A stretch of DNA of 64,000 bases from Cenococcum geophilum (taxonomy: Eukaryota), in assembly GCA_050273025.1 (NCBI GenBank), contig CP158635.1:4402001-4466000 (forward strand), written 5' to 3'. The translations under genes and the position numbers were made by a program. Below the pieces are notes generated by a model. The model was not told the DNA's origin. It did not search any database and worked only from the letters and a program-made list of their open reading frames with translations. Of the stretch, positions 5,535 to 62,588 are shown piece after piece; positions within the stretch are counted from its first letter, which is position 1, and each line of letters starts with the position of its first letter.

Positions 5535-7427
5535 ACTAAGGTAAGTTACTATAATAGTAATTATTTATTAGTAAGCTAATTTAATAAAATCTACAGCGTG
5601 GATATTTACCTTAATTAACCTCCGCACTTTTACCTCATAACATTACACCGCAAACTTTATTATTATTGTTTTATCTACTATCTATTAGCATACTACTATC
5701 TATAATCCCTTCTTTTATACCTCTAAATACGTCTAACAGCTATTTAGTTGAGGAACTTAATACGCGCGATATTGATGATAAAATAATTAAGGACGCTTTT
5801 AAAGACGCTCTTTCTTTTACTAATCCTTTAAAATCTTTACCTAGAGAGTAAGCTTTCTAATACTAAATTATGCCTATAGCTAATATAATTTTAGGAAATA
5901 TATACTAAAGCACTCTTTATTAGATCTAGCAGAGCACTATAATAAGGTTATTGCGAAATCCGCTAGAAATTTGCTTACCTTTTCATTGCTTACCTCTTTA
6001 CCGCCTACTTCTTTACTACTTATCTCTTTGCCGCCTACCTTTAAGCCGCTTATTTCTTTATCGCCTACTACTTTTAAGAAGTTTAATCCTTATTGTGCTT
6101 TTACTTCTCTTAAGAGGCAGGCTAATAGAATTGCTGCGCAAAATTTTTAGTATAAGATAGCCTTTAAATCGTATATATTAGCTATACTCTTTTAGTATCT
6201 TATCTACTAATTTACCTCTTATAGTAACCTAATAGAAATGTTAGAGATTTTAGATAATAATAAAGAGAATAATCTTAATGACGCTAACTCTCCTAAAAGC
6301 CCTTCTCTATCCTTTTATAATCTCCACAGCCCTTATAAGCTCCGCAGTACATAGACGGCCTAAGCTATAATATTGGATATTAATATAAACGAGCGCCTTC
6401 CTATTTAAGTGCTGTTAGTAAATAAATAGTATACCCTAAAAGCTAGTGCTTAGGAGAATATAAAGGAAACTCGCTAGTAGATATATACCCACGTCTAGAA
6501 TATTAAGGGTAGCTCTAGTATGCTGCGCGATCTACTATACGCTTTATATGTTAAGCAAGACTATAAATATCGCGTCTATAAGTAAAACTCTGCGCTATAT
6601 TTTGGAGGTATGTGCTTAAGATATCGTTTAAGTAGTAGGTTGTGCAAAAAGGTATATACTAATAATATACTATTATTCTATTAGCTAACACGTATATAGG
6701 ATAGTTTGCTAAGACTAGAGCCGGTTACACCTTAGCGTAAAAAATGTACGTAATTAGCTTCTGCTAGTAGTCTAGCTAGAACGCCTACTAAAAAGGTATA
6801 ATATCCGCATTTTAATAATATGGATATTGCTAATATCCGTATAGCTTTATACCTATACTATCCCCCCTCCGGAGACCTTCCCTTCCCCTAAGACTTTTAC
6901 TTATAGTAATATACGCAGCCGTAGGGGCACCCGTTCTGCTGCTGCTCCTTTTACTCTTTTACTAATTCCTAGTACGCCTAGTACTGCTTCTAGTACTACT
7001 GCCGCTCCCGCTAGCACGGAGAATATTAGGGTATATTTAGCAATTGCTATTTCTACACGCGTTAATATAGTTTATAGATAGGTAACTAAGATAGCGAAAG
7101 ATGTTTAGGCTATAGATTGCTGGTTAAGTAAGCTTAAAGATTCTTTAAGTAAGATAAAGGATTGGCTTGCGTTTATAAGGCGTAGTATTATAGCACTTAT
7201 ATATAACGCCGGGTTGCTAAATATAGAATTTAAGTAGATATTAGTTAGCTATTGCTGCGGGTTAGCTATTACTATGGGTTAACTGTTATTATAGGTCTAG
7301 AGTAATAAAATAGTAGCTCTTACCTCTCTACTACTATATATGTAGGAATTAAGTCTCTACCTTATATTTAATAGACGTAATTAATATTATAATATCCATA
7401 TAAGCTAAGATAAAGATATTTATATAT
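5535..7427 (+). pseudogene. Copy 1 of a ~1.9-kb duplicated unit: intron-containing gene relic with a Zn(II)2Cys6-like cluster
   Basis: Homologous to 12655-13998 plus 21955-22540. GT..CTAAY..AG introns at ~5849 and ~6652. Six TGY/TAY codons at 6538-6645 spaced C-x2-C-x6-C-x14-C-x2-C-x6-C. Confidence 0.65.
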
Positions 7428-12621: not shown

Positions 12622-13998
12622 TGAAGATATTTATATATCCGCACTATTGATAATTACTAAGGTAAGTCACTATAGTAGCAATTATTTGTTAGTAAGCTAA
12701 TTTAATAAAATAGGTAGCGTAAATATTCACCTTTAATTAACCTCTATACCTCTTTTTCCTTTACTAACCTTCTACCTTATAGTACCGCACCGTAAACTTT
12801 ATTATTGTTGTTTTATCTACTATCCCTTAGTATTCTTCTATCTATAATACCTTTATTTACACCTGTAAATAATATTAATGCGAATAATAGTAGCTAGGTA
12901 GTTAAGGAGCTTAATATACGCGAAATAAACGAGGATGTTGTTAAGCACGCTATAGCTGCTCCTACTAAGCCTTTAGGCTTTATTCCTAAAGAGTAAGCTT
13001 TCTAATACTAAATTATACCTATAGCTAATATAATTATAGAAAATATATACCGAAGCGCTCTTTATAGGATTTAGTAGATAATAAAAATATAGATAGAGCG
13101 AAATCCGCTAAAAATCCGCGTACCTTTTTGCTGCCTGCCTTTCCTTTACCTACATCTTTACTATAGACTACTTTGCCGTCCACTTCTTCGCTATCTGCCT
13201 CTTTGCTACTACTACCTAATACTTTTAAAAGGAGGCTTAATAAGGCTCGGTTATCTTCTTTTTTTAAAAAGTAGGCTAAAAAGGCTGCTGATATAAATTT
13301 AAAGGCTAAGATAGCCATTAAATTATATATATTAGTTATACTATTTTAATATCTTATCTACTAATTTACCTCTTATAGTAACCTAAATATTTATAAGGTT
13401 TCTTTAGATAGCAAATCTTTAAATAGCGGCAAAGATGAAGATCTTAATAACGCCGACTCTTATAATCTCCGCAGCCCTTATAATCTCCATAGCCCTCGCA
13501 ATCTTTATAGCCCTTATAATCTCTATAGTACTACAAATATAAACAAGCGCCTTCCTATCTAAGTGCCGTTAGTAAATAAATGGTATACTCTAAAAGCTAG
13601 TGTTTAGGAGAATATAAAGGAAAGTCGCTAGTAGATATTAACATACGTCTAGAATATTAAGGGTCGCTTTAATAAGCTGCGTAACCCGCTATATACTCTA
13701 TGTAAGAAGTATAGCCATAAATATCGCGTTTATAAGAAGGACTCTAGGCCTTATTTTAGGGGTATATACTTAAGATATTATATAGGTGGTAGGTTGTACG
13801 GAAAGGTATATGCTAATAGTATACTATTATTCTATTAGCTAACACGCGTATAAAAAAGTTTACTAAATCTAGAGCTGGTTACACCTTAGGGTAAAAAACG
13901 TGCGAAGTTAGCTTCTGCTAATAGTCTAGCTAAAACGCCTACTAAGAAGGTATAATATCCGCGTATTAATAATACGGATATTGCTAATATCCGCATAG

Positions 13999-52786: not shown

Positions 52787-54265
52787 TCACCGCTCAAACA
52801 GCAGCCCAGCCGCCAGCTCCACGTGCCCATCCGTCGCATTCAGCGCCGCCACGGCCTCGTGCCGCGAAAACCCGAGCGCGACCAACGCGTCGACGTCTCG
52901 CCCGGGCCACGGCACCGCCGGCTGGGCCAGCGCCGCGACGACCGCGGCGGGGGAGGGGAGCGGGGGCGCGGGGGCGCTTGGCGCGGGCGGGGTCTCTGCG
53001 CGTAGGACGAGGCCGAGCGCCTTGGCCCAGCCCGCTGGTCCCGCCGGTGGCGTCGCGCCCACCTCCGTCTCTTCCGCCCTCGAAACCGCGCGCACGACGT
53101 CCCTGTCCCCCTCCCCCAACCCCGCATTGAAGTACTCCCACCCCATGACCCCGCCGAACCCTCCTCTCGCCGCATACCGCGCGCGCAGCACCCCGCACAC
53201 CTCCCGCAGCAGCCCCAGCCCCACGTGCCCGGCCCCGTTCGCCGCATTCGTCACCACGCCCAGCACCACCCTGCGTGGATCCCACCCCGCCGCGACGATG
53301 GCGTCGTACCACCCCGTGGTCTGCGCATCCCCCCACCCGCAGTAGAACTGGGTGTTGTACCACTCCACTAGCCGCCCCGCGGGCGAGGCCTCGAGCTCCG
53401 CATACGAGAAGCCGGAGAGGTGGGGGAGGGAGCGGTGGAGCGGGTTTGGAGTGTTCGGGGCCAGGGAGGCGGGGCGTGGGGGCGCCGGGTGCGAGGGGTC
53501 TGGGAGGAGGGCGGTGGCGACGGGGGCGAGGGTTAGGAGGAAGGAGGGGCCGAAGTCGGCGCGGAGGCGGGTGAGGAGGCGGACGGGGGTGGAGAGGGGG
53601 ACGGGCTCTTCGATGTCGAGGTCGAGGCCGTCGAGAGGGTGGTGTTGGAGGAGGGTGCGGAGGGGAGCGTAGTAGGCTTCGCACTGCGGGGGGGTGGCGT
53701 TAGCGGTTTGGATCGGTATAGGATTTAGGTAGGTGAGAGAGCTGGGAAGAAGGGAGCCGGGAGAAAGGGAGCTGGTAGAAAGGGAGCTGGTAGAAAGGGA
53801 GCTAGTAGAAAGGAATCTGGAGAGAGGGAAAGCATGGAAGCCGAGTCCAAGGTCCAAAGCTGCTCAACAGTACCATCACCCAGCCCTCCCAAACATAAAT
53901 AAATTCCTCCCAAAACATAATAAACACCCCAAACAACTCACCTCCTCATCACTCCCCCCCAACCTCTCAAAACTCCCCTTCGCCGCTCCCCCCAGCATCC
54001 CCAACACCTTAACTCCCGCACCCCTCAACCACGCCACCTCCGCCCACAGCGTCCGAAACTTCTCCGCATCGAACGGGTCGTCGTTCAGCGTGATATTCCC
54101 AGGGCCCTCGTTCAGATGGATCGCCGCGACGATGACGTGCGTCACCCCCGTGTTCTGCGTTATCAGCGGCAGCAGCGACACCGGTGTCCCTGAGCTATCG
54201 TGGTGCGTTTGCGCGTAGAGGACGAGGCGCGGGCCGGTTGAGAGAGGGAGGAGAGTTGGTGGCAT
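52787..54265 (-). CDS. GH18 endo-beta-N-acetylglucosaminidase/chitinase-like protein with a C-terminal UBA-like domain, no evident signal peptide
   Basis: THVIVAAIHLN, KVLGMLGGAA, catalytic DGLDLDIEE, WYNTQFYCGWG, GGVMGWEYFN; C-terminus DVDALVALGFSRHEAVAALNATDGHVELAAGLLF. One intron at ~53686-53941. Confidence 0.9.
53735..53830. repeat. 15-bp tandem repeat (agaaagggagctggt) in the GH18 intron
   Basis: About five to six imperfect units. Confidence 0.8.
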
Positions 54266-58205: not shown

Positions 58206-59876
58206 CTAGTATTCTCCCGGCTTCCTCTCAACGCCCGACACCGGCGCCGCATCCTTTACATTGACACCCGCACTAGCCGGCGTGGCACTGGTTGGATGCG
58301 CACTGGTCGGATGCGCACTCCCAGCAGCCTCCTTCTCAGCCAGCAAACCCTGCGTCTGCAACGGCGCCATCTGCTTCTCCTCGGTAACCGTAGGGCTAAT
58401 CGGGCTAGTCATCTCTGACTTCCTCGTATCAGCCGGCGAGCTGGGGACGCTGGACTCGGGCATCTCATTCGTGACCTGGCCGGCCGCCTGACGGATAATC
58501 TCCCACCACTGCTGCGCTGACTGCGGGGTGTGCGCCTTGAAGGCGAGCTCATGCGACATGCTGAAGGTGTTGCCGACCTTGCCCTTGCTGACGTCCTTGC
58601 CCTTGACGTTGAATTTGTCGCCGTTGAGCGCGCCCGCGATGCAGTCGGGGAGGTACAGCGACAGCTCGGGCGACGGGTCCTTGGCGAAGTCGTCGTCGGT
58701 TTTGAATTCGTGCAGGAATTTCGACGGCGTCACGACGTAGTAGCTTGCGTCGTACTTCTTCATGATCTTGCCCTTCCGCTCCAGGGATCCGGCGATCAGG
58801 GGTTGCGTGGAGCGATGGTTCTGGTTCGGGAAGGAGACGTTGGACAGGGAGCGTGGAGGTGCGGATGGATCGATCAGAACGCCGTCGTTGCGGTGGATGA
58901 AGCCATTCCATTCGAAGTCGGGTGGGATGCGCTGAGCTGTCCCAACTATGTCGCCGTACATAACCCTCGTTTGCTCGGCCTGGCTGCTGACCACCTGCAT
59001 GAATTGGCCCATACCTTGCTGCATGGTCTGGATGATATGCGCTTCAAACCGGGCAAAGCTGTTCTGAACCGATATCATGTCTTGGCGGTTGTTGTTCTCT
59101 TCCTGAATTTGCTTGTTCAGGCGGTGCATCACACCACGTTGGATTACATATGGGTCATCAGAAGCAGCCACTTTGCCACCAGTAGAGTCGAAGGTCGCTG
59201 TGTGCTGGCCTAGCAGTTCAATGTGCTTTTGAGTAACGTTCCTGGCCTTGTCCACCGCCTTGGCGCCTTTTCCAGCACCCTTCGCGAGCTCCTTAGTCTT
59301 ATTCTTGATCTCGGAGTGGAGTCGCTCGAATACGGGGAGGATAGAGCCTTTGATTGCTTTTGCGGTATCGTAATGCGAATTGGAGATACCCTGGAAGAAG
59401 TGATCAGCACACATACACCAAAAGTGGACGCACGAAATTCTTTACCTGCGTGTTGGACCTGATGTTCTCGAACATGCCCGCAATACCACCAAGAGACTGA
59501 TCAAAGTGATGTCCTTCCCTCAAAGGATGTGACACCGTCTATATGGTCTCAATTAGCACGCGCCAGAGATTTCCGACTGTAACGGTATCTCCTACGGACC
59601 TTGAGCACTTTCTCGTATTCTTTGCCATGCGCATGCTGCAGCTTCTCCGTTGCGGTGATGTAGTCTTCGAGATATGCAATGGCATGCTTCCAAGCTTGAA
59701 GGCGCTCTTGGAATAGCTTGGTAACCTATTCGCTGTCAGCTCGGCCTTCATATGTGATTTGTTTTCTTGGAGGCTGTAAAACCTACCTCGCTGGTATCCT
59801 CGCCAGGAATGGCATCGTCATCGCTACCTTGAGTCAAGGTCCTCGTGGGGAGGTTTGCTGAAGTAGGAGTCGCCAT
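58206..59876 (-). CDS. Slm1-like BAR-PH domain protein
   Basis: ERLQAWKHA N-terminus; PH domain GSLERKGK...YYVVTPSKFLHEFK...PELSLYLPDC...AQQWW; several introns. Confidence 0.88.
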
Positions 59877-60344
59877 GACCGCGATATAGCAAAGCAGAGG
59901 GTTTTAAGTTTGACGTAGGACTGGAATATGTAGGTTGGAGGGTTGCGAGAGGCGCCCAGAAATTAGGAGGGGTGATTGCGTGGGGTTAAAATGTCACGAG
60001 TTGGTTTTGAGCAGGAAGCTGGCAGAGTATGAATGTGAAATCAATCAGCCAATTAATCAATTAGGGGTAAAGGGTGAAGAATAATAGAAGCGTATGTATC
60101 AGGCAGGGTTTATGAAGTTACTGAACCCCTCTCGTGGGGACCCTTGGACCCTTGGAAAAGATAGACATCAGATCGTCTGGGACTTCAAAAGTTCGTTGAT
60201 GTCAGTGGCTTTGTCCAGCCCACACAGCCACAGTCCAGCCGCAAATCACCCTGCTAGCTGCGGCGCAACCACCCATCAAAAATTTCTACAGGCCAGCCTT
60301 CATCTCTCTCCCACGACACCACCTCCGGCATCCTCTAAAATGCC

Positions 60345-60351
60345 AAAAAAA
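60345..60351 (-). terminator. Pol III terminator (T7) of the tRNA gene
   Basis: TTTTTTT a few nucleotides after the discriminator base on the minus strand. Confidence 0.75.
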
Positions 60352-60355
60352 GAAG

Positions 60356-60495
60356 CTCTCCGACGGGGAATCGAACCCCGGTCTTGATAGAGGTTAGTTT
60401 TATTGTTAATTAACGTTTAGTTAAGTGGCTTACCTCCCGCGCTTGTTGAGATGTATCTTGACAAGCGGAAATCATGACCACTAGACCATCGAAGA
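60356..60495 (-). tRNA. tRNA-Asp(GTC) interrupted twice: 17-nt canonical intron (60442-60458) and 51-nt GT-AG insertion (60383-60433)
   Basis: Exons of 37, 8 and 27 nt join to a 72-nt cloverleaf: acceptor TCTTCGA/TCGGAGA, anticodon stem TCCGC/GCGGG, T arm CGGGG-TTCGATT-CCCCG, discriminator G. Confidence 0.92.
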
Positions 60496-60948
60496 TATTC
60501 AGAACTCGTATTTGGAGAGCCAAGCGAAGACTCAACCGCGATTCTGATGGTTAAACTAGAAGATACGTTAAAAAAAGGAGTATATAAGCTTGAGTCAGCT
60601 CCAAGTCTGTTGCCGAGGACATCCGGGAGCACCACTATCTTTGAGTAAGACACCTTATCACCATAGTCGAAACAGCTAGACAGCTTCCTAGGGGAAATGT
60701 GTCTTGTAATGTAAGTTTAGACAGCGGTTTTATGCACAAGAAGAGGTTTTCAGGAGGTAATGTCACATCAAGATGATTTGTTCTTCACATTCCTTTAAAG
60801 TATATACATTGAACCGTTCAGGCGACATTACATATTCCGCCATCCTGGATAGTTGCACATTTGCCCGTAATACGTCAGGCGTCGCGAATGTGTCTTGAGG
60901 ACCCGTTTTGTTCCAGACCATTATAAGAATTTTGGTAATATCGCGTAA

Positions 60949-62588
60949 CTAATACTCCATTGCTTCCTCAAACAATCCCGTAAGCTGCTCCCTCTCTGCA
61001 TCCAAATTCGTCATCTCTAAGTTCGGTGCTAGCATCAGAACCCTAGCCTGCGGGATCGTGCCCTCCACCAGTGCATCTACATGCTCTTTACCAAATCCTA
61101 GTGCCTTCAACCCCCGAGGCTGGTCACCTAATTTCACTAGGAAGTCTGCAAGAGCTTCGCTTAACACCTCGCCCGCACTTTCCTTCTTCACCTGGCTTAC
61201 ATCAACGCCGAAGCACTCCGCAGCTGCGAGATGCCTCTCTGGATTCGAAGCACCTGTGAATTTGAACACAGCCGGCGCAGTAACGGCAACGCTCACGCCA
61301 TGCGGGATAATCGGGCTGTCCACCTGGTATCCCGGGTGTTTGTACCCAGGGTTTTGACCTGATATTGGATAGCTCATCCCATGGCATAGATGGACGCCTG
61401 CATTACCAAAACCTATGCCGGCCAGAGTCGCTGCCAAAAGCATCTGACTCTGCGCTTCGTGGTCCTCAGGGTCCTTCACTGCGCGCGGAAGGTATTTGAT
61501 AGTGCTTCGTAGAGCTTGGAGAGAGAATATGTCAGATATTGGGTTCGCGCCTTGGTACGCCGGCCGATTGATCGGATTTGTTGGTCTTGGGACCCGCTCA
61601 TAGTATGGGATGGCTGTCCAAGATTCTAGAGAATGACACAGCACATCTAGGCCTGAGGAAGCGTGCACAGCCGATGGCATTGTACGTGTATTTAGGGGAT
61701 CGCATATCCCTAATGTGGGCTTAAGATTACGGTGTGCAATACCAGTTTTAGCACGCTTTGAAACAAGATCAAAGATCGCTGTGCCCGTAGTTTCCGAGCC
61801 AGTACCTGCGGTCGTAGGGACGGCAATGAGAGGCTTGAGGCCTTTAGTAATTGGTTTACCTTTACCTAGGGGTGCATTTACAAAGTCGAGGAATTCGGCG
61901 TCTTGAGAGTTACGTTAGTCAGAGACATAGCTAGTAGAAATATATGAGATACGGACCAGGGAGTGTAGTATAAAGATTCATTAACTTTGCGGTGTCTATT
62001 ACTGACCCTCCGCCAACGGCTAAAAGGGCATCAGGCTGGTATGGTTTCGCGGCGGCAATTGCAGTTTTAATTCTACAATCCTATCAGCATAATTTCCTTG
62101 GAACATAAATGTCACTTTCTCTTCTCCTAAAATAATATAATTACAGTGCCCTACTGTAAGAAACCCACTCACGAGCTGTCCTTCGGTTCCACCCGCACGC
62201 CGTCGAATACCTCAAACGCAATTCCCTCAGCTTCCAAGGCCTGCACTACCTGCTTCATAGCATTCAGCTTCTTCACAGTGCTATCTGTAACCACCATGAC
62301 CTTCTTCGCTCCCATGTTTTTGAAATCCATTCCCACCTCTTTTGTACATCCCGGACCGAACCTTATACTTGATGCTGCCATTTCAAAGGCATATTCCTTC
62401 TGCTGAGAAGCATCAATTGGTGTAGCGAGAGACCGCCGAGCTTGATTTACTAAGGAAGGTGTTGCATGGTGGTGGTGGCCCGGGTTAGAGTGGCACGGGC
62501 AAGACGGCGGGTGTGTATACTGGACGGTGCGGAGGAGATTGATGGCGCGTGCTGCGTGAGTGGGGGAGACGCGAATTGCTGTAGGCAT
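60949..62588 (-). CDS. Hydroxyacid-oxoacid transhydrogenase (ADHFE1-like Fe-ADH), mitochondrial
   Basis: CPCH N-terminus, KEYAFEMAASSIRFGPG, AVGGGSVIDTAK, PTTAGTGSETT, RPAYQGANP, GVHLCHGMSYPI; two introns. Confidence 0.95.

What the first reader, a model, noticed from the sequence alone, without database searches (positions are those of the whole stretch)
60356..60495. tRNA-Asp gene with a spliceosomal-type intron in the variable loop plus a normal tRNA intron
Seen: on the minus strand the gene reads exon 1 (37 nt, ending GTC-A37), a 17-nt intron, an 8-nt exon CGCGGGAG, then GTAAGCCACTTAACTAAACGTTAATTAACAATAAAACTAACCTCTATCAAG (51 nt), then ACCGGGGTTCGATTCCCCGTCGGAGAG. The 51-mer has a donor AG|GTAAGC, a branch site ACTAAC and a 3' AG, like the mRNA introns in this window. 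Removing it exactly restores the 4-nt variable loop AGAC. All stems, the A/B boxes and the T7 terminator are intact, which argues against a decaying pseudogene. Established: nuclear tRNA introns normally sit at 37/38 and are cut by the tRNA splicing endonuclease; spliceosomal introns are known in some fungal snRNA and rRNA genes. I know of no established case in a tRNA. Inference: a Pol III pre-tRNA processed by both the endonuclease and the spliceosome, possibly gained at an AG proto-splice site. Standard tRNA finders may miss such genes.
Basis: partly seen in the sequence, partly recalled or inferred. Interest (0 to 1): 0.92.

Follow-up and report, generated by a model that had tools for sequence, protein, structure and literature searches.

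The report
Spliceosome-type intron inside tRNA-Asp gene
A fungal aspartate tRNA gene is split, besides its ordinary small tRNA intron, by a 51-base insert that carries all the marks of a messenger-RNA intron, sits at the same spot in distantly related fungi, and appears to be cut out exactly in RNA data, so this tRNA may need the mRNA splicing machinery to be made.

Summary
On the minus strand, 60495-60356 reads exon 37 nt / 17-nt intron at 37/38 / exon 8 nt / 51-nt insert / exon 27 nt / T7. Removing both inserts gives a clean 72-nt tRNA-Asp(GTC).

A metagenome scan that did not ask for GT, AG or a branch site returned 6 further tRNA-Asp genes split at the same variable-loop site. They fall into two lineages: Gloniaceae-like Dothideomycetes, and a second fungus whose flank best matches Leotiomycetes. 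In 7 of 7:
- the insert starts GT and ends AG;
- CTNAC lies 9-12 nt before the end;
- the first AG after it is the tRNA border;
- there is no T4 run.

Insert bodies and flanks have diverged to background, while the exons differ at 0-1 base. No bulge-helix-bulge motif is present.

RNA contigs show an unexpected antisense transcript spliced across the gene, using the mirror image of the signals. The sense junction was not displayed. However, the contig breakpoints in one metatranscriptome match exactly, at k=31, a hidden path with the 51-mer removed and the 17-nt intron kept.

Spliceosome dependence and Pol III origin remain unproven. I found no such case in print. This scan has noted similar tRNA introns on other fungal DNA.

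The parts
60459..60495 (-). tRNA-Asp exon 1 (37 nt: acceptor 5' strand, D arm, anticodon stem 5' strand, anticodon GTC, A37); A box TGGTCTAGTGG at 60478-60488
60442..60458 (-). 17-nt canonical tRNA intron at position 37/38
   Evidence: ARAGORN i(38,17) once the 51-mer is removed
60434..60441 (-). 8-nt exon 2 (C38, anticodon stem 3' strand, first two bases AG of the variable loop)
60383..60433 (-). 51-nt spliceosomal-type intron in the variable loop: 5' site GAG|GTAAGC (60428-60433), branch motif ACTAAC (60393-60398, branch A 11 nt from the end), 3' AG (60383-60384), no T run longer than 2
   Evidence: conserved signals in 6 related loci; breakpoints in run X3 fit its exact removal
60356..60382 (-). 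tRNA-Asp exon 3 (27 nt: last two variable-loop bases AC, T arm with B box GGTTCGATTCC at 60367-60377, acceptor 3' strand, discriminator G)
60345..60351 (-). T7 run 4 nt after the tRNA 3' end, Pol III terminator-like
   Evidence: a T5-T8 run lies 5-16 nt downstream in 7 of 7 loci
60393..60450 (+). 58-nt GT-AG intron of an antisense (plus-strand) transcript. Its 5' site GTTAGT is the reverse complement of the tRNA intron's ACTAAC. Its likely branch GCTTAC is the reverse complement of GTAAGC. Its 3' AG lies in the complement of the 17-nt intron.
   Evidence: joint 60389/60448 (cut +3) in contigs of X3, X9 and X1; sequence
60980..61032 (+). second GT-AG intron (53 nt) of the same antisense transcript, inside the last coding exon of the minus-strand Fe-alcohol-dehydrogenase gene
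   Evidence: joint 60979/61033 in X3, X9 and X1; Pfam for the minus-strand ORF

Best explanation
This is a working nuclear tRNA-Asp(GTC) gene of a Gloniaceae-like (Cenococcum/Glonium-related) ascomycete. It carries two different kinds of intron.

Proposed pathway:
1. The gene is transcribed from its internal A and B boxes. Pol III is inferred from the boxes, from the T7 run 4 nt downstream, and from the absence of T4 runs inside both introns.
2. The 51-nt variable-loop intron is recognised as an ordinary U2-type intron: GAG|GTAAGC, ACTAAC, and the first AG 11 nt after the branch A. The spliceosome removes it and joins exon 2 to exon 3, restoring the 4-nt variable loop AGAC.
3. The 17-nt intron at 37/38 is then removed by the tRNA splicing endonuclease and ligase.
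4. The ends are trimmed and CCA is added.

What is shown: the anatomy, the conservation of the signals, and the lack of a BHB motif. What is inferred from one run: exact removal of the 51-mer while the 17-nt intron is still present. What is inferred only: the spliceosome as the agent, Pol III as the polymerase, and the order of steps.
For: Anatomy. ARAGORN and Rfam recover a full tRNA-Asp only when the 51-mer is treated as an insertion. The cloverleaf is regular.

Conservation. The scan pattern fixed only exon 2, exon 3 and a 30-60 nt gap. Of the 39 metagenome loci it returned, 6 are tRNA-Asp genes split at the same site; the other 33 are unrelated by eye. Counting the window, 7 of 7 inserts:
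- start GT and end AG;
- have CTAAC, CTCAC or CTGAC with the branch A 9-12 nt from the end;
- have the first AG after it at the tRNA border.
Only 2-5 of 20,000 shuffles per insert do as well.

Divergence. Between the two lineages the inserts share 21-24 of 53-60 aligned columns, and flanks are similarly unalignable. Exon 1, which was not in the search pattern, is 36-37 of 37 identical in 6 of 7 loci. The 8 unconstrained bases of exon 3 are identical in 7 of 7.

Contexts. Three orthologous loci lie between the Fe-ADH and BAR/PH genes (window, L017, L010). One paralogue lies beside a Vps29-like gene (L013). Three belong to a second fungus whose uracil-permease flank best matches Leotiomycetes.

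Pol III features. The longest T run is 3 or less in the insert and 2 or less in the 37/38 intron in 7 of 7 loci, and a T5-T8 run lies 5-16 nt downstream in 7 of 7. By contrast, 3 of 5 RNA-validated mRNA-type introns at this locus contain T4 (by eye).

Intron size. Those 5 validated local introns are 53-61 nt.

No BHB. In 0 of 7 loci is there a 4/4 central helix, and the scores are no better than shuffles (76-367 of 500 shuffles reach them).

RNA. In metatranscriptome X3 the contigs break at 60384|60385 and 60433|60434. A k=31 graph simulation reproduces all six displayed records (ends and lengths 38, 101, 44, 57) only if a path joining 60382 to 60434 with the 17-nt intron retained is added. 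Without that path it predicts different contigs. Depth rises by about 58 at 60434 (113.9 against 55.8).
Against: The sense junction itself was not displayed in any of the 4 runs laid. The only raw-read RNA run (X19, another strain) had zero depth over the gene.

The X3 inference rests on breakpoints. Two unrelated events, or a DNA allele lacking the insert, could in principle give the same breaks.

The junction that is seen across the gene belongs to an antisense GT-AG intron (60393-60450, plus strand) in X3, X9 and X1. At this locus, and at its two orthologues, part of the signal conservation could therefore serve the antisense RNA.

Some signals are weak. The 3' site is AAG in the window. 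L013 has GTGAAC and L021 has GTAATT, so +5 G is missing in 2 of 7.

The orthologue L010 has a 4-nt deletion that leaves a 4-nt D loop, so that copy may be decaying.

The search pattern could not find uninterrupted tRNA-Asp genes. Whether these fungi depend on the split copies is unknown. No whole genome was available.

Splicing of a Pol III transcript by the spliceosome is documented for U6 snRNA, not for any tRNA.
Confidence: 0.68

Rival explanations
1. The intron is spliceosomal, but splicing happens only on Pol II transcripts that run through the gene. These would be read-through from the same-strand Fe-alcohol-dehydrogenase gene about 450 nt upstream, or an upstream Pol II promoter. The tRNA is then cut out of the spliced RNA by RNase P and RNase Z, or is not produced from it at all. 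Pol III transcripts of the gene are never spliced.
For: The gene lies downstream of, and on the same strand as, the Fe-ADH gene. RNA contigs cover the whole intergenic region in X3, X9 and X1. The hidden X3 path keeps the 17-nt tRNA intron, as expected for a nuclear Pol II RNA. Spliceosome coupling to Pol II is the textbook rule (recalled).
Against: A and B boxes are intact. T5-T8 runs lie 5-16 nt downstream in 7 of 7 loci, and T4 is absent from both introns in 7 of 7. This pattern is expected only if Pol III must read through. The four non-orthologous loci have different upstream neighbours. Contigs are unstranded, so sense read-through is not shown. Stranded X19 reads show no minus-strand RNA between 60337 and 60885, though that strain may be too divergent to lay.
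Confidence: 0.15
2. The split copies are not sources of mature tRNA. They would be disabled or merely tRNA-derived loci whose exons look conserved through recency or gene conversion from intact copies. The intron-like signals would be the mirror image of, or be maintained by, antisense Pol II introns such as the one seen here.
For: An antisense GT-AG intron using the reverse complement of ACTAAC as its 5' site, and of GTAAGC as its probable branch, is really spliced. L010 has a damaged D loop yet keeps the signals. No direct sense junction was displayed. Uninterrupted copies could not be searched for.
Against: An antisense intron does not explain why GT and AG sit exactly at the two tRNA-defined borders in 7 of 7 loci, nor why the first AG after the branch is that border. 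The antisense intron ends elsewhere, inside the 17-nt intron. Exons are 0-1 base different where both introns and flanks are at background similarity, including between two fungal lineages. Gene conversion from intron-less copies would tend to erase the insert, and exon 2 is only 8 nt. Terminators are kept and T4 runs avoided on the sense strand. The X3 breakpoints fit sense removal; on the plus strand those borders read CT..AC.
Confidence: 0.12
3. The 51-mer is removed by a non-spliceosomal route. It could be cut by the tRNA splicing endonuclease at a relaxed bulge-helix-bulge motif, as for non-canonical-position tRNA introns of archaea and the red alga Cyanidioschyzon, or by self-splicing.
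For: Non-canonical-position tRNA introns cut by the endonuclease exist in archaea and a few eukaryotes (review PMC3978253, seen as a search listing only; otherwise recalled). The same gene already uses the endonuclease for its 37/38 intron.
Against: My own BHB scan found no 4-bp central helix flanked by 3-nt bulges at the borders in 0 of 7 loci, and the scores did not exceed shuffles. Minimum-free-energy folds show no shared structure at the borders. What is conserved is GT, CTNAC and AG, not a structure. At 51 nt it is far too short for a group I or II intron.
Confidence: 0.05

Closest known systems
mRNA-type (spliceosomal) introns in fungal snRNA genes, above all the Pol III-transcribed U6 gene of Schizosaccharomyces pombe (Tani and Ohshima 1989, 1991; Takahashi et al. 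1993, 1996 for U2, U1 and U5 of Rhodotorula; seen in the reference list of PMC5855946)
   Same: A short GT...branch...AG intron inside a small, structured, non-coding RNA gene that has Pol III features. It needs the spliceosome to act on a non-mRNA.
   Different: The host is a tRNA, not a spliceosome component, so the reverse-splicing origin proposed for U6 does not apply directly. The gene also carries a second, endonuclease-type intron, so two splicing systems must act on one small RNA. Splicing is shown for U6 and only inferred here.
Spliceosomal-type introns in nuclear rDNA of lichen-forming and other ascomycetes (PMC8527467, title and abstract start seen in the listing; Bhattacharya et al. 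2000, recalled)
   Same: mRNA-type introns in genes not transcribed by Pol II, in Pezizomycotina.
   Different: Those are Pol I transcripts and a different host RNA. Position and function are unrelated.
Non-canonical-position and multiple tRNA introns of archaea and Cyanidioschyzon merolae (BHB-dependent; PMC3978253, listing only)
   Same: A tRNA gene with more than one intron, one of them outside 37/38. Standard tRNA finders miss it.
   Different: Those introns are defined by a bulge-helix-bulge structure and cut by the tRNA endonuclease. Here no BHB is present, and the conserved features are GT, CTNAC and AG.
Canonical eukaryotic tRNA intron at 37/38
   Same: The 17-nt intron of this gene is of this kind.
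   Different: The 51-nt insert lies in the variable loop and has spliceosomal signals. Current reviews state that tRNA splicing does not use the spliceosome (PMC13149111 section 8.1; PMC10275265; PMC12530127 introduction).

Membership tests
tRNA (Rfam RF00005), isotype Asp, anticodon GTC | Full cloverleaf match above the curated score; anticodon GTC in a 7-nt loop | tested here: met
   RF00005 matches 60356-60495(-), model 1-71 of 71, 33.3 bits against a gathering score of 29. ARAGORN calls a 72-nt tRNA-Asp(gtc) after both inserts are removed.
tRNA gene transcribed by Pol III | Internal A and B boxes, a T-run terminator just downstream, and no T4 or longer run inside the transcribed part | tested here: met
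   A box 60478-60488, B box 60367-60377, T7 at 60345-60351. The longest T run inside the introns is 3 or less in 7 of 7 loci, and T5-T8 lies 5-16 nt downstream in 7 of 7. Actual Pol III occupancy is not testable here.
U2-type spliceosomal (GT-AG) intron | GT at the 5' end and AG at the 3' end, exactly at the exon borders | tested here: met
   7 of 7 loci, with borders defined by the tRNA and not by the search pattern.
U2-type spliceosomal (GT-AG) intron | Fungal branch-site motif (CTRAY-like) a short distance before the 3' site, with the first AG after it used | tested here: met
   CTAAC in 4, CTCAC in 2 and CTGAC in 1. The branch A is 9-12 nt from the end, and the first AG downstream is the border in 7 of 7. 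CTCAC departs from CTRAY at one position.
U2-type spliceosomal (GT-AG) intron | Length and 5' site like the organism's own mRNA introns | tested here: met
   The inserts are 50-58 nt. Five introns validated by RNA joints at this locus are 53-61 nt, and one of them starts GTAAGC. Two of 7 inserts lack G at +5.
U2-type spliceosomal (GT-AG) intron | Exact excision from the sense RNA | tested here: inconclusive
   No sense joint was displayed. Contig breakpoints in X3 are reproduced only by adding a 60382|60434 path.
U2-type spliceosomal (GT-AG) intron | Lariat formation and dependence on snRNPs | not testable with these tools
   Needs lariat sequencing, splice-site mutants or spliceosome inhibition.
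BHB-type (endonuclease) tRNA intron at a non-canonical position | Two 3-nt bulges holding the cut sites, separated by a 4-bp helix | tested here: not met
   A home-made scan at all three equivalent cut registers found a 4/4 central helix in 0 of 7, and 76-367 of 500 shuffles score as well. Folds show no shared motif.
Canonical eukaryotic tRNA intron | Located between positions 37 and 38 | tested here: met
   True of the 17-nt intron only (ARAGORN i(38,17)). The 51-mer lies in the variable loop, so it is not a member.
tRNA pseudogene | Exons decaying at the rate of introns and flanks; lost stems, boxes or terminator | tested here: not met
   Exon 1 is 36-37 of 37 identical in 6 of 7 loci, where inserts and flanks are at background similarity. 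The exception is L010, with a 4-nt D-loop deletion.

The most novel reading that the evidence does not exclude
tRNA-Asp maturation in these fungi obligatorily needs two unrelated splicing machines. A Pol III precursor is first spliced by the nuclear spliceosome at an ancient variable-loop intron. That intron is either shared by Dothideomycetes and Leotiomycetes-like fungi since before the two classes split, or was gained repeatedly at the same AG|A proto-splice site. The precursor is then spliced by the tRNA endonuclease. Most or all tRNA-Asp(GTC) genes of these genomes carry the intron, so decoding of GAC and GAU depends on the spliceosome. Taken with similar notes of this scan on other tRNA isotypes, spliceosomal introns would be a general, overlooked feature of Pezizomycotina tRNA genes. 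It would also explain tRNA genes that are 'missing' from annotations.
Probability: 0.4. Interest if true: 0.95.

Novelty: new variant of a known kind. Interest (0 to 1): 0.85.

Why it matters
Textbooks and current reviews keep spliceosomal and tRNA introns strictly apart. They state that tRNA splicing does not use the spliceosome.

A conserved spliceosomal-type intron inside tRNA genes would matter in several ways:
- It would be a second class of Pol III transcript, after U6, that the spliceosome processes.
- It would tie translation capacity for Asp codons to spliceosome activity.
- It would give a natural system for studying Pol II-independent splicing and the order of nuclear and cytoplasmic tRNA processing.
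- It would show that tRNA gene counts in fungal genomes are underestimated, because standard finders skip such genes.

The mirror-image antisense intron also warns that unstranded RNA-seq can mislead at such loci.

Tried and rejected
- **Whole genome of the window.** Not held, so no census of tRNA-Asp copies with and without the insert.
- **Records behind the metagenome loci.** The genome search on L010, L013, L017 and L030 was not possible because the records are not held.
- **Raw-read RNA run X19.** Another strain (50 of 51 laid reads 95-99% alike). Zero depth from 60337 to 60885, so no verdict on the tRNA.
- **Runs X9 and X1.** Only the antisense-spliced contig lies over the gene, which says nothing about the sense RNA.
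- **BHB reading.** Rejected.
- **Fully spliced tRNA in X3.** The simulation predicts breaks at 60459 and 60488 that are not seen. This is expected for a 72-nt modified RNA in ordinary libraries and is not evidence of absence.
- **Other tRNAs in the window.** The B-box pattern and a permissive whole-window Rfam scan find only this gene. ARAGORN's tRNA-Ser(act) at 53288-53378 has a mismatched cloverleaf and no Rfam support, so I treat it as a false call.
- **Pfam on flanks of the second lineage.** ORFs of L005, L021 and L030 gave 0 families. Only a homology search placed L030.
- **Earlier findings of this scan.** Look-ups by place and by sequence gave nothing.
- **Literature.** Nine searches gave no paper describing a spliceosomal intron in a tRNA gene. 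The library lacks most subscription journals.
- **Timed-out script.** timed out and was rerun in lighter form.

Full report
**1. Observation**

- exon 1 of 37 nt, ending GTC-A;
- a 17-nt intron;
- the 8-nt exon CGCGGGAG;
- a 51-nt insert beginning GTAAGC, containing ACTAAC and ending AG;
- a 27-nt exon 3;
- after 4 nt, a T7 run.

ARAGORN finds nothing in the intact gene. It finds tRNA-Asp(gtc) with a 17-nt intron at 37/38 once the 51-mer is taken out, and a regular 72-nt tRNA-Asp once both are out.

Rfam's tRNA model, run with permissive filters, aligns the whole gene (model 1-71 of 71, 33.3 bits, gathering score 29). It puts the 51-mer in the variable region. This is the only RNA-family match with E up to 1 in the whole window.

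Only 3 of 20,000 shuffles of the 51-mer carry the full set of signals.

**2. Organism and setting**

A Miro/Gem1 ORF in the window is 97% identical to Glonium stellatum and 99% identical to unnamed records. The window therefore comes from a Gloniaceae fungus (Dothideomycetes); I infer it is Cenococcum-like. No whole genome is held.

The tRNA lies between a Fe-alcohol-dehydrogenase gene and a BAR/PH-domain gene. All three are on the minus strand.

**3. Related sequences**

I scanned the metagenome collection once. The pattern fixed only 7 nt of exon 2, a gap of 30-60 nt and 19 nt of exon 3. It did not ask for GT, AG or a branch site.

Of the 39 loci returned, 33 are unrelated: by eye, they are chance pairings with other tRNAs, mostly in GC-rich bacterial-looking DNA. 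The other 6 are tRNA-Asp(GTC) genes split at the very same variable-loop position:
- L017 and L010 are orthologues, sitting between the same two genes. L017 is nearly identical to the window. L010 is about 80% identical in the flanks.
- L013 is a paralogue beside a Vps29-like gene.
- L005, L021 and L030 belong to a second lineage. The flank of L030 encodes the N-terminus of a uracil permease. Its best-covered named matches are mostly Leotiomycetes, at only 44-50% identity, so the placement is tentative.

In all 7 genes:
- the insert (50-58 nt) starts GT and ends AG;
- it has CTAAC (4), CTCAC (2) or CTGAC (1) with the branch A 9-12 nt from the end;
- the first AG after that motif is exactly the tRNA border.

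Between the two lineages the inserts share 21-24 of 53-60 aligned columns, and the flanks are equally unalignable. Exon 1, which was not part of the search pattern, is 36-37 of 37 identical in 6 of 7. The unconstrained last 8 nt of exon 3 are identical in 7 of 7. The signals and the exons are kept while the rest drifts. That is the signature of a functional intron in a functional gene.

Ascertainment limits what can be claimed. The pattern cannot find uninterrupted copies or inserts at other sites, so the share of split copies is unknown.

One result against the reading: L010 has a 4-nt deletion that shrinks the D loop to 4 nt. That copy may be decaying. Also, 2 of 7 inserts lack G at +5 (GTGAAC, GTAATT).

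**4. Polymerase features**

- A and B boxes are intact.
- All 7 loci have a T5-T8 run 5-16 nt after the tRNA.
- None has a T run longer than 3 in the insert, or longer than 2 in the 37/38 intron.
- The window's insert is A-rich (23 A, 13 T).
- By contrast, 3 of the 5 mRNA-type introns validated by RNA at this locus contain T4 (by eye).

This fits selection for read-through by Pol III, which stops at T runs (established knowledge). It is not proof.

**5. Alternative removal by the tRNA endonuclease**

I wrote a scan for a bulge-helix-bulge motif at the borders, covering all three registers allowed by the repeated AG. It found no complete central helix in 0 of 7 loci, and 76-367 of 500 shuffles did as well. 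Minimum-energy folds show no shared structure at the borders.

**6. RNA data**

One run search and one lay were allowed. I laid a raw-read RNA run (X19), two metatranscriptomes (X3, X9) and one probable RNA run (X1) on 59300-61100.

*Positive control.* Three minus-strand introns of the BAR/PH gene appear as CT..AC joints (59391-59445, 59539-59599, 59726-59786).

*Unexpected antisense transcript.* X3, X9 and X1 all show a plus-strand GT..AG joint across the tRNA gene (60389/60448, cut +3, so the intron is 60393-60450). They show a second one at 60979/61033. An antisense, apparently non-coding transcript is therefore spliced across the gene. Its signals mirror the tRNA insert's:
- its 5' site GTTAGT is the reverse complement of the insert's ACTAAC;
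- its likely branch GCTTAC is the reverse complement of GTAAGC;
- its 3' AG lies in the complement of the 17-nt intron.

This is a real caveat, because fungal 5' sites and branch sites are near mirror images. However, an antisense intron cannot explain why GT and AG coincide with the tRNA-defined borders in 7 of 7 loci.

*The predicted sense joint (60382|60434) was not listed.* X19 is another strain and has no depth over the gene.

*Indirect evidence from X3.* X3's contigs are fragmented at 60384|60385 and 60433|60434. I simulated a k=31 de Bruijn graph:
- The genome plus the antisense-spliced form predicts contigs ending at 60392 and a 115-nt piece spanning 60363-60477. These are not what was laid.
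- Adding one path with the 51-mer removed exactly and the 17-nt intron retained predicts pieces ending at 60384, 60355-60392 (38 nt), 60363-60463 (101 nt), 60434-60477 (44 nt), the 57-nt antisense join, and a piece starting at 60448.
- Those are exactly X3 records 5, 6, 7, 8, 10 and 9 (table 8).

The only predicted piece not displayed is the 58-nt join itself. The tool states that human-like contigs are dropped without notice. From memory, the exon 2-exon 3 join is identical to human tRNA-Asp over about 27 nt; this is recalled and not tested.

Depth rises from 55.8 to 113.9 at 60434. The bin depths are fully accounted for by the listed records (my arithmetic).

I read this as indirect evidence, from one run, for a molecule lacking exactly the 51-mer while still holding the 17-nt intron. 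It could also be an intron-less DNA allele or two unrelated branch events. Its polymerase of origin is unknown.

**7. Mechanism proposed**

1. Pol III transcribes the gene.
2. The nuclear spliceosome removes the 51-nt intron (U1 on GAG|GTAAGC, branch at ACTAAC, first AG).
3. The tRNA endonuclease and ligase remove the 17-nt intron.
4. The ends are processed and CCA is added.

The order (spliceosome first) fits the inferred intermediate. It also fits the recalled fact that in yeasts the endonuclease acts after nuclear export.

| Step | Status |
|---|---|
| Anatomy, conservation, no BHB | shown |
| Exact excision of the 51-mer | inferred from one run |
| Spliceosome, Pol III, order of steps | inferred only |

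**8. Comparison with what is known**

The closest precedent is the mRNA-type intron of fungal U6 snRNA genes, which are Pol III transcripts, and of other snRNA genes (references seen in PMC5855946). Spliceosomal-type introns in lichen rDNA are a second precedent (PMC8527467, listing only).

Non-canonical tRNA introns of archaea and Cyanidioschyzon are BHB-dependent (PMC3978253, listing only). That feature was tested here and not met.

Passages read in three recent papers treat tRNA and spliceosomal introns as unrelated, and tRNA splicing as independent of the spliceosome:
- PMC10275265 (only the first 300,000 characters are held);
- PMC12530127;
- PMC13149111 section 8.1.

Nine full-text searches found no description of a spliceosomal intron in a tRNA gene. 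The library lacks most subscription journals, so this is not proof of absence.

**9. Earlier notes of this scan**

A word search shows that other agents noted the same kind of thing on other fungal DNA: tRNA-Asp with a 56-nt variable-loop insert, and Gln, Cys, Thr, Arg (two), Lys and Leu genes. Judging by their summaries, none came with RNA proof.

I did not test those notes. They are leads suggesting the phenomenon is general in Pezizomycotina. I did not raise my scores on their account.

**10. Verdict**

The reading as a conserved spliceosomal-type intron in a working tRNA-Asp gene is the best explanation (0.68).

Open points:
- direct junction reads;
- spliceosome dependence;
- Pol III or Pol II origin of the spliced molecule;
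- whether uninterrupted tRNA-Asp genes exist in these genomes.

Novelty: a new variant of known kinds, namely a spliceosomal intron in a new and unexpected host class together with an endonuclease intron. Interest is high.

Noticed in passing
window 60393-60450 (+) and 60980-61032 (+): A plus-strand, apparently non-coding antisense transcript is spliced across the tRNA gene and across the last coding exon of the Fe-alcohol-dehydrogenase gene. Its first intron uses the reverse complement of the tRNA intron's branch motif as its 5' site and of the tRNA intron's 5' site as its probable branch, making it a 'mirror intron'. Seen in contigs of X3, X9 and X1.
   Followed up: partly
L013:1415-1444(+), L005:1342-1371(-), L021:193-222(-), L030:407-436(+): A 5-6 bp hairpin (such as CCAGG...CCTGG) ends 3-4 nt before the first base of the tRNA in 4 of 7 loci, across both lineages. 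It is absent from the window, L017 and L010. Z-scores are modest, -1.1 to -3.2. Meaning unknown; possibly a 5' leader structure.
   Followed up: partly
L010 (minus strand of the locus), tRNA exon 1: The orthologous gene in a more divergent relative has a 4-nt deletion that leaves a 4-nt D loop without the usual GG, while both introns keep their signals. It may be a decaying copy or an assembly error.
   Followed up: partly
window 53288-53378 (-): ARAGORN calls a 91-nt tRNA-Ser(act) of 68% GC with several mismatched stem pairs. Rfam finds nothing there even with permissive filters. Probably a false positive.
   Followed up: partly
window 5541-5894 (+) and 12662-13039 (+): Two pairs of nearly identical AT-rich, intron-like stretches about 7.1 kb apart turned up in my splice-signal scan. 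This points to a repeated element or a segmental duplication in an AT-rich part of the window.
   Followed up: no
window 60177-60216: Reads of the other-strain RNA run X19 match only this 40-nt piece and run on unlike the window on both sides. They carry a 1-nt omission at 60196 in 6 of 7 reads. Likely a short repeat or a diverged or rearranged region in that strain.
   Followed up: no
L005, L021, L030, L013: about 40-57 nt upstream of the tRNA: TATA-like stretches (for example ATATATA) lie about 40-57 nt upstream of the tRNA in 4 of 5 independent contexts. In the window the nearest (TTATATAC) is about 100 nt upstream (by eye).
   Followed up: no
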